Shown here in pieces: positions 6,656-32,517 of a DNA stretch of 64,000 nucleotides (position 1 is its first letter; each line of letters opens with the position of its first letter). Position numbers and translations under genes: made by a program. Below the pieces are notes generated by a model. The model was not told the DNA's origin and did not search any database. It saw nothing but the letters and a program-made list of their open reading frames with translations. Origin of the DNA: Verrucomicrobiia bacterium (lineage in GTDB: Bacteria > Verrucomicrobiota > Verrucomicrobiia > Limisphaerales > UBA11358); assembly GCA_049692125.1 (NCBI GenBank), contig JBAVOO010000057.1:2421-66420 (forward strand), in the 5' to 3' direction.

Positions 6656-7600
6656 ATGAAATGTCCCGTTTGCGAAGAAGAGCTTAATCAAGAACTCAAA
6701 GAATTATCCGGACGAAATGTTGTGCGGTTTTCCTGTGCAAATTGCGGCACATTTGACACATCTGATGTAGCTAATTCTTTGGTTATCGGCCTTGGGCAAA
6801 ATCCGATTAAGCGCGCGGTATTAAGTTATTCATTGCGTAAAATGCAGGCGAGCGGAACGCCTTATTTAAACGAGAGCCTTCTCAAGAAAATTATTGAGAA
6901 ACCACTGCCTACATTACCGGAACAATGTGACAATCTGATTTTGTGGTTGGGTAACAGCTTAAGTTTTGGCGGACACCGCATCTGGATAAATCCCCAGACA
7001 CATCGAGCTGTATTGGGGGCTGTAAATGCGTTTGCCTTCGGTCAAGTTATCCGTCACCTCGTGAAGCAGGATCTTATTGAGGTTGATATGAGAGACAATG
7101 GTCTATACGCGGCACATACGACATTGTCAGTTGATGGATGGGCCTATTATGAAAAACTCCGCCGAAATAATCCGCAAAGCCGAGTTGCGTTTATGGCGAT
7201 GCAATATGGCAATCAGGATTTAGATCGGCTCGTCAAAGATTTCTTTAAACCCGCTGTTGCCAAAACCGGTTTTGACTTGCGAAGACTGGACGAGAAACAA
7301 CGTGCAGGTCTCATTGATGATCGTCTCAGAGTTGAAATCCGAAATGCGCGGTTCATGATCGCCGACTTAACAGACGACAATGAAGGCGCATACTGGGAGG
7401 CGGGTTTCGCTGAAGGCTTAAACAAGCCGGTCATCTTCATTTGTGAGAAAGCAAAATTTAAGGAGAAGAAAACTCACTTTGATACAAACCACCATTTGAC
7501 GGTTCAATGGGATAAAGACGCACCACAAGGCGCAGCCGAAGAGCTCCAGGCCACTATCAGAGCTACCTTGCCGGACGAAGCACGAATGACTGATGATTGA
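6656..7600 (+). CDS. Zn-ribbon / winged-helix-like / nucleoside 2-deoxyribosyltransferase-like (SLOG/TIR-like fold) protein
   Basis: N-terminal CPVC...CANC. C-terminal VAFMAMQYG...FMIADLTDDNEGAYWEAGFAEGLNKPVIFI matches the NDT-type signature (D.G..wE.G.A...KPV). AT-rich gene in a GC-rich context. GGGAG RBS about 12 nt upstream of ATG 6656. Confidence 0.6.
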   Translation: MKCPVCEEELNQELKELSGRNVVRFSCANCGTFDTSDVANSLVIGLGQNPIKRAVLSYSLRKMQASGTPYLNESLLKKIIEKPLPTLPEQCDNLILWLGNSLSFGGHRIWINPQTHRAVLGAVNAFAFGQVIRHLVKQDLIEVDMRDNGLYAAHTTLSVDGWAYYEKLRRNNPQSRVAFMAMQYGNQDLDRLVKDFFKPAVAKTGFDLRRLDEKQRAGLIDDRLRVEIRNARFMIADLTDDNEGAYWEAGFAEGLNKPVIFICEKAKFKEKKTHFDTNHHLTVQWDKDAPQGAAEELQATIRATLPDEARMTDD

Positions 7601-28808: not shown

Positions 28809-30185
28809 ATGAAAAAAATCTCTCCCATTTCCCGCAGCGGGCGGTTCGCGCATGAGGTGAGCGCGGACGTCGCGCAATTCACCGAATCCATCTCCTTCGA
28901 CCGCCGACTCTGGCGGCACGACATCCTCGGCTCGCTCGCGCACGTCAAAATGCTCCAGAAAATCGGCGTGCTGACCAAAAAGGAATTGCGCACCATCATC
29001 CGTGGCCTGAACCAAATCGCCAAGGAAATCGCCGCCGGCAAATTCAAGTGGAAACCTGAACTCGAAGACGTTCACATGAATATCGAGGCCGCGTTGACGA
29101 GACGCGTCCCAGCGGGGGCAAAACTGCACACCGCCCGCTCCCGCAATGACCAAGTTGCTCTCGACCTGCGCCTCTGGCTGCGCGACGAAATCGTAATTTT
29201 GCTTGGGGGAATCGCCGATTTGCAGCGCGCGTTGGTTTCGCTTGGCGAGAAAAACGCCGATGTCCTAATACCTGGCTACACGCATCTCCAACGTGCCCAG
29301 CCCGTTTATCTCGCGCACCATCTGCTCGCTTACGTCGAGATGCTGGAGCGCGACTGTGAACGTCTTTGGGACTGCCACTCGCGCGTAAACGTCTGCCCGC
29401 TCGGCAGTGGCGCGCTTGCCGGCTCGACTCGGCAGTTGGATCGCGAACTCGTTGCCAAAACGCTCGGCTTCGTGGACACGAGCGGCAAACCGCGCGTTTC
29501 ACAAAATTCCATGGACGCCGTCAGCGACCGCGATTTCGCCGTCGAATTTTGCGCCGCCGCCGCGTTGCTCGCCGTTCACATTTCGCGGCTCGCGGAGGAT
29601 TTGATTTTCTGGGCCAGCGCGGAATTCGATTTCATCAAAATTGCCGATGCCTACACCACCGGCTCATCAATGATGCCACAAAAGAAGAACCCGGACGTGG
29701 CGGAACTCGCGCGCGGCAAATCGGGCCGGGTCATTGGCAACCTCGTCGCGTTGCTCACGCTGTTGAAAGGGTTGCCGATGACCTACAACCGCGATTTGCA
29801 GGAGGACAAGGAACGGCTCTTCGACACCGCCGATACCATGCACGCGACTGTGCGTATCGTCGCCGCGATGCTACGGAATACGAAAGTAAATCGCGCCAAA
29901 TGCGCCAAAGCTGCGAATGACTCAGCGTTACTGGCAACCGACCTCGCGGATTATCATTCCCAGCAGTCGCTTGCCCCCCGCACAGAAGCAATTTTGCACG
30001 AACTTTTATATGCCGACCAGTATGCCAAGTATTCTGATCCGGCTACAGGAGAAATGAAACAGCCTATCAAATTACCGAGCGAAGCTGAAGAGGATGATTT
30101 GCTGCGTCGTTTCTATCAAATCCAAGCCTCTCGTGAAAAATCAAAGATGACTGCAACGTCTTCAAAAGCAAAAAAAAATATCTAA
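28809..30185 (+). pseudogene. argH: argininosuccinate lyase, first 381 codons fused to an unrelated AT-rich 77-codon tail
   Basis: Canonical ArgH up to ...ALLATDLAD (SRNDQV, GYTHLQRAQP, GSSMMPQKKNPD). After codon 381 the sequence (YHSQQSLAPRTEAILHELL...) no longer resembles ArgH. Confidence 0.85.
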
Positions 30186-30487
30186 AAAGCTAGGAAACAG
30201 AAGCTGTTCAGAAAGATTATCGTTTTGGGCAAGAAAAAGAATAGCGGCTAGAGGATTTTCCGCCATCTTGCCAATTGCTTCGCTACTTCCTTTGTTCCCG
30301 GTGCGCCAATCAAATTCCGCCGCGTCATCGCACGTTGCAAATCGAAAACGCCAGGCGTATCGCGGCCAAATTTTTCGTTTACGGATACCCATTCCTCGCG
30401 CGACAGTTTGTTGAGCTGCTTGCGCGATTTTTCGGCCAACGCCACGGCTGCACCGACTGCATGATGCGCCTGCCGGAAAGTCCCTTT
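29952..30487. other. 536-bp segment apparently inverted relative to ancestral order, bounded by imperfect 12-bp inverted repeat GAYCTYGCGGAT
   Basis: gacctcgcggat at 29940-29951 and atccgcaagatc at 30488-30499. The base composition switches at both junctions. Confidence 0.7.
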
Positions 30488-30760
30488 ATCCGCAAGATCT
30501 CGATTAACGCAGATATAGAATGCACGGATGGGATACTCGCGAAAACTCCCATCTGGGTGACGGACTTTCTTTTTTTCACCTTTCTTCCATCGAGGAAAAA
30601 TAACAGTTGGTTTTGATCTAAAAAGTGGAATGTATCGCTGGAAACTAAATTCCAAAATTATAGGCTGTAAGTAAAATCCCCTCTGTAAGGAACAAAGTGA
30701 CTGTGGCATGACCTTGCGATAAACAGTCAAGCCATTAGATTTTTTCTTGCCAACCACCAC
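30248..30760 (-). pseudogene. argH: chimeric ORF: AT-rich 91-codon 5' part fused to the ArgH C-terminal 79 codons (30251-30487)
   Basis: C-terminal ...DLADKGTFRQAHHAVGAAVALAEKSRKQLNKLSREEW...NLIGAPGTKEVAKQLARWRKIL matches the ArgH C-terminal consensus (LAD...KG.PFR.AHH.VG), on the opposite strand from the argH 5' part. Confidence 0.8.
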
Positions 30761-30800: not shown

Positions 30801-31163
30801 TCATATTGTTATTTTGGTCTTCTCTGGTAAGGGAGCGGGGCAACATTTAAGCAGCACTGAAAGCGGATCAAATTTCTTCATGCACTTTTTCAAATCCGCA
30901 GGCTTTGAAATTTCAGCTTGATAGTCCCGTTCAATGGCGGCAATTGGCCCTCCAAAGACTCTCCTCGCATCAGCCATAAAATCAGCCTTATAAATTTGCT
31001 GATTGGCTATACAATGCATAGCCACAATCCCGTATTTGTTTTTTGGAACGGGATGCGTGCAGTTTTGGTTTTTTTTCACTATAATGGGCCAATTTCTAAT
31101 TGGCCTTATGCCGGTTTCTTTTCTTTTGTTCGTTTTCGATGCCAATGCTCTCACACAATTCAA
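30801..31163 (-). CDS. hypothetical protein (AT-rich island)
   Basis: 120-aa ORF open in AT-rich DNA. No family recognised. Confidence 0.35.
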   Translation of the reverse strand: MNCVRALASKTNKRKETGIRPIRNWPIIVKKNQNCTHPVPKNKYGIVAMHCIANQQIYKADFMADARRVFGGPIAAIERDYQAEISKPADLKKCMKKFDPLSVLLKCCPAPLPEKTKITI

Positions 31164-31529: not shown

Positions 31530-31871
31530 ATGAAATTGCCCAATGCAAACAAAGCCATTGTCGAGCGCGACAAAATCCTGGTTTATCTGCTGAACCCGGA
31601 ACATCGGATCGGCGCGAGCAAGGCGCAATTTTTCACCAAGTTCGGTTTCAGCGCGGAGAAATGGGAACAACTGGCCAAGGCGTTGCTGGTTCATGGCCAA
31701 ACACATGACGTGAAGCGGATGCATGAGACGGATTTTGGCCCGCGTTACGAAGTTGAAGGCGCATTGAAAACGCCCGACGGTCGCGAGCCGATTATTCGTT
31801 CGGTCTGGCAATGGGATAAAGGCACAGTTGCGCCAAGATTGATAACAGCCTATCCTTTGGAGGCGAGATGA
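31530..31871 (+). CDS. DUF6883-like protein
   Basis: ILVYLLNPEHRIGASKAQFFTKFGF...DGREPIIRSVWQWDKG...PRLITAYP matches my recollection of DUF6883. Overlaps the next ORF by 4 nt. Confidence 0.6.
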   Translation: MKLPNANKAIVERDKILVYLLNPEHRIGASKAQFFTKFGFSAEKWEQLAKALLVHGQTHDVKRMHETDFGPRYEVEGALKTPDGREPIIRSVWQWDKGTVAPRLITAYPLEAR

Positions 31872-32101
31872 AGATCAAAGAACATGATTGCGTGGTGTTG
31901 ACGCGTGACCTGCCGGATGAAGATTTGAAGGCTGGTGACGTGGGCACGGTGGTCCACATTCATAAGGGCGGCGTGGCTTACGAAGTGGAATTTGTCACGC
32001 TCACGGGCAAAACCATCGCTGTTGCCACGGTGGAAGCTTCCCATTTGCGTCCGGTTGGTCAACGTGACATCAACCATGTCCGCGAGTTGGCCATCGCATA
32101 G
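31868..32101 (+). CDS. DUF4926-like protein
   Basis: MKIKEHDCVVLTRDLPDEDLKAGDVGTVVHIHKGGVAYEVEFVTLTGKTIAV is a typical DUF4926 pattern. Confidence 0.6.
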   Translation: MKIKEHDCVVLTRDLPDEDLKAGDVGTVVHIHKGGVAYEVEFVTLTGKTIAVATVEASHLRPVGQRDINHVRELAIA

Positions 32102-32223: not shown

Positions 32224-32517
32224 TCAGACTGTGGCGAGCTTTGCCTTTTTGCGCCAGGCGCGCTCGGCAAATTTGCGGGCTTCCTTCGCGCCGCGCAGCA
32301 GGCAGTCGGAACTGATGTCGCAATCGAGCTTCGGCCAATAGACCGAGGTGTGGCAAATCTCAAAATCGGCGCGCTCACGCCGCGTGGCGAGTTGCAGCGT
32401 GGGATAAAACGACAGCGGCACGCTCACCGTTCGCCCATCTTCCAAGCCTAATGTCAGCCGTTCGTCGGTGATTTGCACCGAGGTCACGTCCGGCGGCGGA
32501 TGGTTATTCAGTTTCAT
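32224..32517 (-). CDS. DUF2442-like protein
   Basis: VTSVQITDERLTLGLEDGRTVSVPLSFYPTLQLATRRERADFEICHTSVYWPKLDCDISSDCLL is a typical DUF2442 pattern. Confidence 0.6.
   Translation of the reverse strand: MKLNNHPPPDVTSVQITDERLTLGLEDGRTVSVPLSFYPTLQLATRRERADFEICHTSVYWPKLDCDISSDCLLRGAKEARKFAERAWRKKAKLATV

What the first reader, a model, noticed from the sequence alone, without database searches (positions are those of the whole stretch)
29940..30499. argH is split: its last 79 codons lie inverted about 300 bp downstream, with a 12-bp inverted repeat at both junctions
**What the sequence shows**
- The + strand ORF is canonical argininosuccinate lyase up to ...ATDLAD (codon 381, nt 29951). It then continues as an unrelated AT-rich tail (YHSQQSLAPRTEAILH...KKNI*).
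- The missing ArgH C-terminus (KGTFRQAHHAVGAAVALAEK...IGAPGTKEVAKQLARWRKIL*) is encoded on the opposite strand at 30487-30251. There it is fused in frame behind a 91-codon AT-rich ORF that also ends ...RDLAD.
- Both junctions carry the same dodecamer in inverted orientation: gacctcgcggat at 29940-51, and the reverse complement of 30488-99, which reads gatcttgcggat.
- Base composition flips exactly at both junctions.

**Interpretation**
- Flipping the 536-bp segment 29952-30487 would recreate two ORFs at once. One is a 460-aa ArgH of normal length. The other is a 168-aa AT-rich ORF convergent with it.
- This could be a fixed inactivating inversion (arginine auxotrophy), a reversible inversion switch toggling an essential biosynthetic gene, or an assembly artefact.

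**Caveats**
- The rebuilt ArgH would read LADKG, whereas the consensus as I recall it is LADYLVxKG. The event may therefore not be perfectly reciprocal.
- I see no recombinase gene nearby.
Basis: partly seen in the sequence, partly recalled or inferred. Interest (0 to 1): 0.8.

Follow-up and report, generated by a model that had tools for sequence, protein, structure and literature searches.

The report
Ancient inversion split argH in two
An old, fixed DNA inversion swapped the tail ends of the arginine-synthesis gene argH and a neighbouring phage gene, and a whole clade of peat-soil Verrucomicrobiota has kept both hybrid genes under selection, so the enzyme probably works in two pieces rather than being dead or switchable.

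Summary
The + ORF 28809-30185 is ArgH (Lyase_1) up to ...TDLADY, followed by a foreign tail. The ArgH C-terminal domain (ASL_C2) lies inverted at 30493-30251, fused behind a foreign 89-codon head.

It is not an assembly artefact. The same split locus occurs in at least 6 independent assemblies of this strain and in 8 diverged lineages with conserved synteny.

It is not a switch:
- Only one orientation is ever seen.
- The 12-bp repeat is not conserved.
- No recombinase lies nearby.

The foreign head and tail are the two halves of one ~300-aa phage-associated orphan protein ('X'). Intact X homologues (40-55% identical) cover both halves collinearly.

Junction DNA across lineages shows an exactly reciprocal exchange at a 4-bp microhomology (ATCT): argH ...TAT CT|C GTG... 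with X ...GAT CT|T TTC.... The inverted segment is therefore 29958-30493.

All four segments are under purifying selection:
- ArgH-N: omega 0.11-0.12, the same as in intact relatives.
- ArgH-C: 0.30-0.37, against 0.15 in intact genes.
- X-N: 0.31.
- X-C: 0.36.

Best reading: an ancient gene fission by inversion that left a two-piece argininosuccinate lyase. Function is inferred, not shown.

The parts
28809..29957 (+). argH-derived part of the first hybrid gene: 383 codons covering the Lyase_1 domain and the first helix of ArgH domain 3 (...ATDLADY plus the former Leu codon, now His)
   Evidence: Pfam Lyase_1 E 3e-77. It is 85% identical to intact relatives over residues 1-391. Catalytic signatures RSRNDQ, GYTHLQRAQP and GSSMMPQKKNP are intact. 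Omega is 0.11-0.12, equal to intact orthologues.
29958..30185 (+). X-C tail of the first hybrid gene: 75 codons plus stop, taken from the middle of phage-associated gene X (SQQSLAPRTEAILHELLYADQYAK...). The distal third of X is deleted in this lineage.
   Evidence: Collinear with residues ~108-190 of intact X proteins P0147-P0155. Conserved in all 8 split lineages, omega 0.36 with CI 0.27-0.48. GC 0.43.
29952..29960 (+). Left junction. Ancestral TAT CTT|TTC (argH Tyr-Leu joined to X Phe) is now TAT CAT TCC.
   Evidence: Junction DNA of 8 lineages compared with intact argH (GAT TAT CTC GTG CGC) and intact X (CGT GAT CTT TTC CAG).
29958..30493 (.). The inverted segment (536 bp here; about 0.8 kb in lineages that keep the long X-C)
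   Evidence: Both flanks and both ends are collinear with intact argH and intact X only after the segment is flipped.
30186..30247 (.). 62-bp spacer between the two convergent stop codons
   Evidence: In L012, L176 and L178 the two ORFs instead abut or overlap by 4 nt.
30248..30493 (-). argH-derived part of the second hybrid gene: the last 81 codons of ArgH (rest of domain 3, ASL_C2) plus stop
   Evidence: Pfam ASL_C2 E 6e-11. It is 73% identical to intact relatives. 40 of 46 highly conserved ArgH sites keep the same consensus residue. Omega is 0.30-0.37 against 0.15 in intact genes.
30494..30760 (-). X-N head of the second hybrid gene: 89 codons from the beta-sheet part of X, with a new GTG start at 30760-30758
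   Evidence: Collinear with residues ~20-107 of intact X. A start codon (GTG or ATG) sits at the same position in the other lineages. Omega 0.31, CI 0.22-0.43. GC 0.40.
30491..30499 (-). Right junction. Ancestral GAT CTC|GTG (X Asp-Leu joined to argH Val) is now GAT CTT GCG.
   Evidence: L178 still reads GAT CTG GTG CGC AAA GGA (..NRDL|VRKG..).
29940..29951 (+).
30488..30499 (-). Specific to this strain.
   Evidence: Other lineages read DLAH, DLAR, DLAQ or DLVR here.
30804..30881 (-). Remnant of X's native N-terminus (MKKFDPLSVLLKCCPAPLPEKTKITI), now out of frame with the hybrid gene and cut off by a stop
   Evidence: Matches the MKEFDPHLVLLQCCPNPL... start of intact X.

Best explanation
Shown:
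- In an ancestor of a clade of uncultured peat and soil Verrucomicrobiota, argH was followed by a convergent gene X. X is a ~300-aa orphan protein otherwise found next to phage genes.
- A single reciprocal inversion, with its crossover inside a 4-bp microhomology (ATCT), exchanged the 3' parts of the two genes with no base lost or gained.
- The result is two hybrid genes: ArgH(1-383)::X-C on the + strand and X-N::ArgH(384-end) on the - strand.
- The inversion became fixed and has been inherited by at least 8 lineages (dS up to about 1.5).
- Later changes followed. A new start codon arose inside X-N. One codon was deleted next to the junction (KGMPFR to KGTFR). X lost its own N-terminus, and in several lineages, including this window, its distal third.
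- All four segments have stayed open reading frames under purifying selection. ArgH-N is constrained exactly as in genomes with an intact argH.

Inferred:
- argH was not inactivated.
- The catalytic body (ArgH-N) still works as argininosuccinate lyase.
- The remaining four helices of domain 3 are supplied in trans by the second hybrid protein, giving a two-piece enzyme.
- The retained X halves may help the two chains find each other.

It is neither an on/off switch nor an artefact.
For: Independence:
- The exact 458-aa protein occurs on 16 contigs from ENA, NCBI and Logan assemblies, always next to the 170-aa gene.
- The 4 kb around the inversion is 100% identical across these assemblies, while the flanks differ by up to 86 SNPs.

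Clade:
- Eight diverged lineages show the same convergent pair in the same synteny.
- 22 clusters of X-N::ASL_C2 proteins share the same junction.

Inversion model:
- Intact X proteins of 303-318 aa cover 96-99% of a rebuilt X, collinearly across the junction.
- Rebuilt ArgH aligns end to end with solved ArgH structures.

Reciprocity and microhomology:
- The left junction keeps X's CTT and the right junction keeps argH's CTC, as predicted for a crossover within ATCT.

Selection:
- ArgH-N omega is 0.119 in split lineages and 0.127 in intact ones.
- ArgH-C omega is 0.365 in split lineages and 0.149 in intact ones.
- Pooled over independent pairs: 0.107 (CI 0.089-0.129), 0.30 (0.21-0.42), 0.31 (0.22-0.43) and 0.36 (0.27-0.48).
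- A neutral 170-codon ORF survives substitutions alone with P of about 0.007 at 0.3 substitutions per site.
- ArgH-C keeps the ArgH conservation pattern.
- The strongly modified ArgH-C of the L007/L175 sublineage is itself constrained (omega 0.15).

Break position:
- In X the break falls in a loop between the beta-sheet and a long helix of a confident one-body model (pLDDT 86, pTM 0.82).
- In ArgH it falls a few residues before the KGMP stretch that follows the DLADYLV segment. That this stretch is a turn is my own reading of ArgH structures and was not measured here; one search is a sequence alignment.
Against: - No expression, activity or interaction data exist. Function is inferred from selection only.
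- ArgH-C evolves about 2.5 times faster than in intact genes. One sublineage has lost the conserved GAPGT...W C-terminal motif and gained an insertion. The C piece may therefore be only loosely needed, or may be doing something else.
- I could not check whether these genomes carry a second, intact argH.
- dS differs between ArgH-N and the other segments, and one contig is a mosaic. Recombination with other lineages therefore occurs and could in principle lower omega in ArgH-N.
- The split lineages cluster in the ArgH-N tree, but monophyly has weak bootstrap support (8 of 200).
- The AlphaFold model of ArgH-N::X-C was unusable (pLDDT 42).
Confidence: 0.6

Rival explanations
1. The same ancient fixed inversion occurred, but ArgH-N::X-C works on its own: domain 3 is dispensable or is replaced by the helical X-C tail. 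The X-N::ArgH-C hybrid is kept for some other, unknown role or is decaying slowly.
For: - ArgH-N stays fully constrained even in the sublineage whose ArgH-C has lost conserved C-terminal motifs.
- ArgH-C omega is 2.5 times higher than in intact genes.
- All catalytic signatures lie in the N piece.
- The X-C tail is helical in the intact-X model.
Against: - ArgH-C keeps an open frame in more than 20 clusters. Its omega is 0.3 with an upper CI of 0.42, and 40 of 46 conserved ArgH sites are retained.
- The modified form is itself under strong constraint (omega 0.15, L007-L175).
- From my own knowledge, not tested here: human ASL mutations in this domain reduce activity.
Confidence: 0.22
2. The inversion inactivated argH. 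The lineage is an arginine auxotroph or uses another argH copy, and the pieces are relics.
For: - The gene is physically broken.
- The C piece shows relaxed constraint.
- A second copy could not be excluded.
- One lineage carries a 21-aa tandem duplication in the RSRNDQ region.
Against: - No stop or frameshift occurs in either hybrid ORF in 8 lineages at dS of about 0.3-1.5. The one apparent exception, L186, is a noisy contig with 36 gaps in 7.3 kb.
- ArgH-N omega equals that of intact orthologues.
- Neutral survival of the ORFs is below 1% per lineage.
Confidence: 0.1
3. A reversible, recombinase-driven inversion switch (an intragenic inverton) toggles argH on and off.
For: - A short inverted repeat sits at both junctions in this strain.
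- The exchange is conservative and reciprocal.
- Intragenic invertons exist in other bacteria (bioRxiv 10.1101/2023.03.11.532203).
Against: - The same orientation appears in every assembly and every lineage.
- The restored 460-aa and 168-aa proteins are absent from 15 billion sequences.
- None of the 120 best ArgH homologues carries the KGTFR scar.
- The repeat is not conserved and is no better than chance pairs nearby.
- No recombinase was found within 10 kb either side or among 20 other large ORFs of the window.
- The flipped state would restore a degenerate X.
Confidence: 0.03
4. An assembly or amplification artefact, that is, a mis-joined contig.
For: Short microhomology at both junctions is also typical of chimeric reads.
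Against: - Different assemblers, samples and archives give the same structure.
- It is inherited with sequence divergence by 8 lineages, with compensating changes such as a new start codon and a codon deletion.
Confidence: 0.01

Closest known systems
Prokaryotic gene fission (split genes whose products assemble into one enzyme), e.g. fusion/fission families surveyed in Archaea (PMC11237513) and the split protein genes of Nanoarchaeum equitans (own knowledge)
   Same: One ancestral enzyme is encoded as two non-overlapping, collinear pieces. Both are kept as ORFs under selection in a whole clade.
   Different: Here the cause is visible: a local inversion. Each ArgH piece is fused to half of an unrelated phage protein, giving reciprocal hybrids. 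The pieces are convergent neighbours. I found no earlier report of a split ArgH in three of the five literature searches; the other two were for general context.
Intragenic invertons / invertible DNA switches (bioRxiv 10.1101/2023.03.11.532203)
   Same: A DNA inversion with one end inside a coding sequence changes which proteins are encoded.
   Different: There are no conserved inverted repeats, no invertase, and only one orientation in all data. The event is fixed over evolutionary time and followed by secondary mutations. It is a one-off illegitimate event rather than a programmed switch.
Split DnaE with split inteins in cyanobacteria (own knowledge)
   Same: Two halves of an essential enzyme are encoded separately, on opposite strands. 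Each carries a foreign extension at the break, and those extensions associate.
   Different: Neither hybrid has a Hint/intein domain. No Cys/Ser/Thr or His-Asn splice-junction residues are present. The extensions are the two halves of an ordinary phage protein that exists intact elsewhere. No splicing is implied.
Reciprocal fusion genes made by inversions in eukaryotes (e.g. EML4-ALK; inversion-born chimeric genes in Drosophila) (own knowledge)
   Same: An inversion with breakpoints in two oppositely oriented genes yields two reciprocal chimeric genes.
   Different: This is a bacterial case involving an essential biosynthetic gene, and both reciprocal products are preserved by selection for a long time.
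Engineered protein-fragment complementation (split DHFR or GFP aided by interacting tags) (own knowledge)
   Same: It would work like this if the X halves hold the ArgH fragments together.
   Different: This case is natural and unproven. Association of the X halves is inferred only from a one-body AlphaFold model of intact X.

Membership tests
Argininosuccinate lyase (ArgH, fumarase/aspartase superfamily) | Lyase_1 catalytic domain with the signatures RSRNDQ, (G)YTHLQRAQP and GSSxMPQKKNP | tested here: met
   Lyase_1 E 3e-77. The motifs are present in the window and in all 8 lineages.
Argininosuccinate lyase (ArgH, fumarase/aspartase superfamily) | C-terminal domain (ASL_C2) on the same polypeptide | tested here: not met
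   ASL_C2 is found only on the 170-aa minus-strand protein. There is no other ArgH C-terminus in the 64 kb.
Argininosuccinate lyase (ArgH, fumarase/aspartase superfamily) | Catalytic activity (argininosuccinate to arginine plus fumarate) | not testable with these tools
   Only indirect evidence: omega of the N piece equals that of intact orthologues.
Functional split gene (gene fission) | Two pieces collinear with the intact orthologue, non-overlapping, together covering it | tested here: met
   Residues 1-383 plus 384-end, with a single codon lost.
Functional split gene (gene fission) | Both pieces maintained as ORFs under purifying selection across lineages | tested here: met
   Omega 0.11 for the N piece and 0.30 for the C piece, with CIs below 0.5. 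No disrupted ORFs in 8 lineages.
Functional split gene (gene fission) | The pieces associate and reconstitute activity | not testable with these tools
   No multimer prediction or experiment was available.
Invertible DNA switch / intragenic inverton | Conserved inverted repeats flanking the invertible segment | tested here: not met
   The 10-of-12 repeat is specific to this strain, and the nearby background holds 21 similar pairs.
Invertible DNA switch / intragenic inverton | Site-specific recombinase (invertase) encoded nearby | tested here: not met
   None among the Pfam-annotated genes within 10 kb either side, nor among 20 other large ORFs of the window. The whole genome was not searched.
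Invertible DNA switch / intragenic inverton | Both orientations present in a population | tested here: not met
   Only the inverted form appears in all assemblies. The restored proteins are absent from the 15-billion-sequence collection, and no homologue carries the scar. Raw reads could not be examined.
Split intein / protein trans-splicing | Hint/intein domain halves at the break, with nucleophile and His-Asn junction residues | tested here: not met
   No intein or Hint match at E up to 0.1. The junctions read ..DYH|SQQ.. and ..NRDL|ADKG... The extensions are collinear with an intact non-intein protein.
Pseudogene | Frameshifts or stops, and omega approaching 1 | tested here: not met
   The fragmented copy in L186 lies on an indel-rich contig.
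Protein X family (orphan, phage-associated) | ~300-aa protein: N-terminal beta-sheet, loop, long helix, helical C-terminal part; motifs FYICVNR and PRTE.IAHELLYADQYAK | tested here: met
   X-N plus X-C of the window align collinearly with P0147-P0155. The family has 37 clusters in 1.84 billion representatives. Members lie next to portal and capsid genes or a P63C gene. There are no Pfam, PHROG, PADLOC or Foldseek matches.

The most novel reading that the evidence does not exclude
This would be a natural protein-fragment complementation system. The two halves of a domesticated phage protein, each fused to one fragment of argininosuccinate lyase by a single reciprocal inversion, re-associate and hold the split enzyme together. 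That would explain why selection has preserved all four segments, including the otherwise useless X halves, across a whole clade.
Probability: 0.3. Interest if true: 0.85.

Novelty: new variant of a known kind. Interest (0 to 1): 0.62.

Why it matters
- It is a rare case in which the mutational origin of a bacterial gene fission can be read base by base: a reciprocal inversion at a 4-bp microhomology with a phage gene.
- Both reciprocal hybrid genes survived under selection for a long time.
- If the two chains do reconstitute ArgH, a core biosynthetic enzyme of the fumarase/aspartase fold tolerates being cut inside domain 3. It would also show that fragments of an unrelated gene can be co-opted as start, stop and possibly docking modules.
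- Practically, genome-based metabolic reconstructions would score these Verrucomicrobiota as lacking a complete argH, hence as arginine auxotrophs, which is probably wrong.
- It also marks the argH-SQS_PSY interval as a hotspot for mobile and defence genes in this clade.

Tried and rejected
- AlphaFold of ArgH-N::X-C with the 5 available split sequences gave pLDDT 42. It was unusable, so I ran no further search on it.
- Foldseek of the good intact-X model against PDB and BFVD gave nothing significant, only weak OB-fold/SSB-like hints at probability 0.3 or less.
- Pfam, PHROGs and PADLOC gave no family for X or its distant relatives.
- The search for related loci with the hybrid alignment was swamped by intact argH, because one search pattern came from the ArgH part. 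It did yield the intact controls and two more split contigs. A specific junction pattern then found one GTDB representative with the split, the SPRUCE 68 MAG.
- tblastn for X in about 158 intact-argH loci found none. The pre-inversion state (argH followed by intact X) was therefore not recovered. Intact X genes lie elsewhere, in phage-like contexts.
- The promoter and terminator scan was uninformative.
- Five literature searches found no report of a split ArgH. The last two were aimed at general context (gene fission, invertons) rather than at ArgH.
- P0122/L186 at first looked like a decaying argH-N. It is an indel-rich contig, with 36 gap openings in 7.3 kb.
- A staggered-break or duplication origin of the DLAD repeat was rejected. 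A crossover at the first D-L of ArgH predicts ..TDL|FQQ.., which is not observed.
- The intein idea was rejected.
Full report
**1. The observation**

The sequence is as described.
- The + ORF 28809-30185 (458 aa) reads as ArgH up to ...ATDLADY, then continues with an AT-rich tail.
- The - ORF 30760-30248 (170 aa) has an AT-rich head followed by KGTFRQAHHAVG...WRKIL.
- Pfam finds Lyase_1 (E 3e-77) but no C-terminal domain in the first ORF. It finds ASL_C2 (E 6e-11, residues 94-145) in the second.
- Flipping the segment in silico gives a 460-aa protein with both domains. It aligns over its whole length with solved ArgH structures (E 1e-124), apart from a small gap at the junction.
- GC content steps from 0.58 to 0.43 and from 0.55 to 0.40 at the two junctions.
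- No other ArgH C-terminus exists in the 64 kb.
- The dodecamer pair exists (10 of 12). As a degenerate pattern it is unique to these two sites in the window.
- As an inverted repeat it is ordinary, however. Twenty-one pairs of equal or better quality lie in the same 1.5 kb.

**2. Not an artefact, and not private to one strain**

- The exact 458-aa protein is encoded on 16 contigs from ENA, NCBI and Logan assemblies. Every contig shown has the 170-aa ASL_C2 gene convergent next to it.
- These contigs are 100% identical to the window over the 4 kb around the inversion, with one SNP in one contig. They differ by up to 86 mismatches over about 20 kb of flank, so they are independent samples of one population.
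- A search with the rebuilt 168-aa ORF then returned about 22 clusters of 135-250-aa proteins with the same architecture and the same junction...FYICVNRDLA[DHQRNY]KGTFRQAHH....
- Their contigs show the same convergent pair, a Lyase_1 gene of 458-591 aa facing an X-N::ASL_C2 gene. The synteny is also the same: aconitase, thioredoxin, sensor kinase, CinA, a zinc-ribbon protein, then argH facing the hybrid gene, then squalene/phytoene synthase.
- In all, eight diverged lineages carry it. One GTDB species representative, the peat MAG 'SPRUCE 68', also has it.
- Relatives with intact argH are annotated Verrucomicrobiota, Limisphaerales or Candidatus Angelobacter, from peat and soil.

**3. What the foreign sequences are**

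- In three lineages (L012, L176, L178) the tail after DLADY is about 190 aa long.
- A rebuilt protein made of X-N plus this long tail finds intact proteins of 303-318 aa (P0147-P0155). They are 40-55% identical and cover 96-99% of it.
- The alignment is collinear across the junction...FYICVNRDL|FQP... then PRTE.IAHELLYADQYAK....
- Head and tail are therefore the two halves of one gene, which I call X.
- X is a small orphan family, with 37 clusters at 50% identity among 1.84 billion representatives.
- X has no Pfam, PHROG or PADLOC match and no significant structural neighbour.
- Intact copies lie next to a phage portal (DUF4055) and a capsid-like gene, or next to a P63C-domain gene. X is thus a phage or island gene.
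- X was not found downstream of intact argH in about 158 related loci. The pre-inversion arrangement itself was not recovered.

**4. How the break happened**

Sequences compared:
- Intact sister genes read argH ...GAT TAT CTC GTG CGC AAA GGC ATG CCG TTC CGG....
- Intact X reads ...CGT GAT CTT TTC CAG CC....
- In the split lineages the left junction reads ...GAC TAT CTT TTC CAA CAG... (L012, L176).
- The right junction reads ...CGR GAT CTC GCG CGC AAA GGA ACC TTC... in most lineages, and GAT CTG GTG CGC AAA GGA GCC in L178.

Interpretation:
- Each product is exactly one partner up to A-T-C-T and the other partner afterwards.
- The third base of the Leu codon fits this: X's T on the left, argH's C on the right.
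- The exchange was therefore reciprocal, with no base lost or gained, inside a 4-bp microhomology.
- In window coordinates the inverted segment is 29958-30493.
On the right it is X's own D-L followed by A-D, derived from argH's V-R. Other lineages have AH, AR, AQ or VR at these positions.

Changes shared by the split lineages after the event:
- Loss of one codon next to the junction (KGMPFR to KGTFR).
- A GTG or ATG start at the same internal position of X-N.

X itself degenerated:
- Its native N-terminus is frameshifted off in the window (30881-30804).
- Its distal third is deleted in five of the eight lineages, including this one.

A conservative exchange at so short a core fits illegitimate recombination. 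An integrase or topoisomerase acting on a pseudo-site is possible but not shown.

**5. Is the broken gene dead?**

No signs of decay were found.

| Segment | Omega, split lineages (pairwise) | Omega, intact relatives | Pooled omega, four independent pairs (95% CI) |
|---|---|---|---|
| ArgH-N | 0.119 (28 pairs, dS about 0.9) | 0.127 (165 pairs) | 0.107 (0.089-0.129) |
| ArgH-C | 0.365 | 0.149 | 0.30 (0.21-0.42) |
| X-N | not summarised | not computed | 0.31 (0.22-0.43) |
| X-C | not summarised | not computed | 0.36 (0.27-0.48) |

Pairwise values come and pooled values.

- In simulation, a neutral 170-codon ORF stays open with P of about 0.007 at 0.3 substitutions per site, counting substitutions alone. 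The 458-codon ORF essentially never stays open.
- Both ORFs are nonetheless open in all eight lineages.
- The one fragmented copy (L186) lies on a contig with 36 gap openings in 7.3 kb, which indicates assembly noise.
- All catalytic signatures lie in the N piece and are intact.
- ArgH-C keeps the ArgH conservation pattern. Of 46 sites that are at least 95% conserved in intact genes, 40 keep the same consensus residue and 24 do so at 80% or more.
- One sublineage (L007, L175 and relatives) has an insertion and a rewritten last 17 residues. That modified form is itself strongly constrained (omega 0.15).

**6. Mechanism proposed**

Shown: an ancient, fixed, reciprocal inversion produced two hybrid genes, and selection maintains both.

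Inferred:
- ArgH-N::X-C remains the catalytic body of argininosuccinate lyase.
- X-N::ArgH-C supplies the rest of domain 3 in trans.

On break position:
- In ArgH the break falls a few residues before the KGMP stretch that follows the DLADYLV segment. From my own knowledge of ArgH structures, that stretch is a turn after the first helix of domain 3. This was not measured here.
- In X the break falls in the loop (residues 105-116) between a five-stranded sheet (23-104) and a long helix (117-144). The model is confident and treats the chain as one body (pLDDT 86, pTM 0.82).
- Those are the kinds of positions at which proteins tolerate being split.
- The part of X-C that every lineage retains is the part adjacent to the sheet.

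This suggests, but does not show, that the X halves re-associate and help the two ArgH chains to dock.

**7. Rivals**

- (a) The N piece may work alone, with the second hybrid doing something else. The faster evolution of ArgH-C and the degenerate C-terminus in one sublineage favour this. Continued constraint on ArgH-C argues against it.
- (b) Relic genes, with auxotrophy or a second argH. Omega and ORF integrity contradict this, but I could not inspect whole genomes.
- (c) A reversible switch. This is contradicted in four ways:
  - Every assembly and lineage shows a single orientation.
  - The restored proteins are absent from a 15-billion-protein collection, and none of the 120 best ArgH homologues carries the KGTFR scar.
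  - The repeat is not conserved.
  - No recombinase was found within 10 kb either side or among 20 further large ORFs.
- (d) An artefact. This is excluded.

**8. Caveats**

- dS is often higher in ArgH-N than in the other three segments for the same pair of lineages. One contig joins a window-identical tail to a different ArgH-N end.
- Homologous recombination between lineages therefore occurs around this locus. This blurs the tree: monophyly of the eight lineages is recovered in only 8 of 200 bootstraps, although they do cluster with two intact sisters.
- Recombination could also contribute to the low omega of ArgH-N.
- No expression or biochemical evidence is available.

**9. Comparison with known systems**

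- It works like a gene fission that yields a two-subunit enzyme (general surveys: PMC11237513).
- It was made in the way reciprocal fusion genes arise by inversion in eukaryotes.
- It superficially resembles an intragenic inverton (bioRxiv 10.1101/2023.03.11.532203). It fails each defining feature of that class that could be tested here.
- It resembles split-intein genes in carrying foreign extensions at the break, but has no intein features.
- I found no report of a split ArgH.
- I rate it a new variant of a known kind, of moderate to high interest. The interest would rise sharply if the X halves prove to be the glue.

Noticed in passing
L015:6270-8562: In an intact-argH relative (SPRUCE 359 MAG), a 158-aa PIN-like ORF follows argH directly. 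Next comes an ORF (6775-7113) whose end repeats the last ~35 residues of ArgH, a direct duplicate of the argH 3' end. An AT-rich 476-aa gene then precedes SQS_PSY. This looks like an element integrated into the 3' end of argH.
   Followed up: partly
L102:4283-6105: In the closest intact relative, the space between argH and SQS_PSY holds three things: a 271-aa TIR-like protein, a duplicated 5' end of SQS_PSY, and a Y1/REP-type transposase-like ORF. The argH-SQS_PSY interval is an accessory-gene hotspot in this clade.
   Followed up: no
L012:4416-6191 (also L013, L014, L185): One split lineage carries an in-frame tandem duplication of about 21 aa inside ArgH-N, around the RSRNDQ signature (..GKPHTGRSRNDQADLDIGAKLHTGRSRNDQVALD..). 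The same gene length is seen in three JGI samples, and the duplication itself in the L012 and SPRUCE 68 MAG sequences.
   Followed up: partly
window:31530-32517: A DUF6883 (31530-31871) plus DUF4926 (31868-32101) gene pair and a DUF2442 gene (32224-32517, minus strand) lie between the hybrid gene and SQS_PSY. They are small toxin-antitoxin-like genes in the same variable island.
   Followed up: no
window:30801-31163 (-): A 120-aa ORF upstream of the hybrid gene is conserved in other split loci, and in P0129 it is fused in frame to the hybrid. Its end is the frameshifted native N-terminus of X. It could be leftover X leader or promoter sequence, or another phage remnant.
   Followed up: partly
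window:28809-30760 versus L009, L176, L007, L175; L186: Synonymous divergence differs two- to four-fold between ArgH-N and the adjacent segments for the same lineage pair. One contig is a mosaic, with a window-identical X-C tail on a different ArgH-N end. This suggests homologous recombination between lineages at this locus.
   Followed up: partly
window:7617-9011 (-): A 464-aa metallo-beta-lactamase/beta-CASP ribonuclease has as its best NCBIfam hit 'type VII CRISPR-associated Cas14', at 392 bits against a cut-off of 800. It is probably an ordinary CPSF/RNase J-like enzyme.
   Followed up: no
L183:2313-6930: An intact X gene sits directly upstream of a phage portal (DUF4055) and a Gp13-like capsid gene. 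That is roughly where terminase or head-assembly genes usually lie, a hint to X's original role.
   Followed up: no
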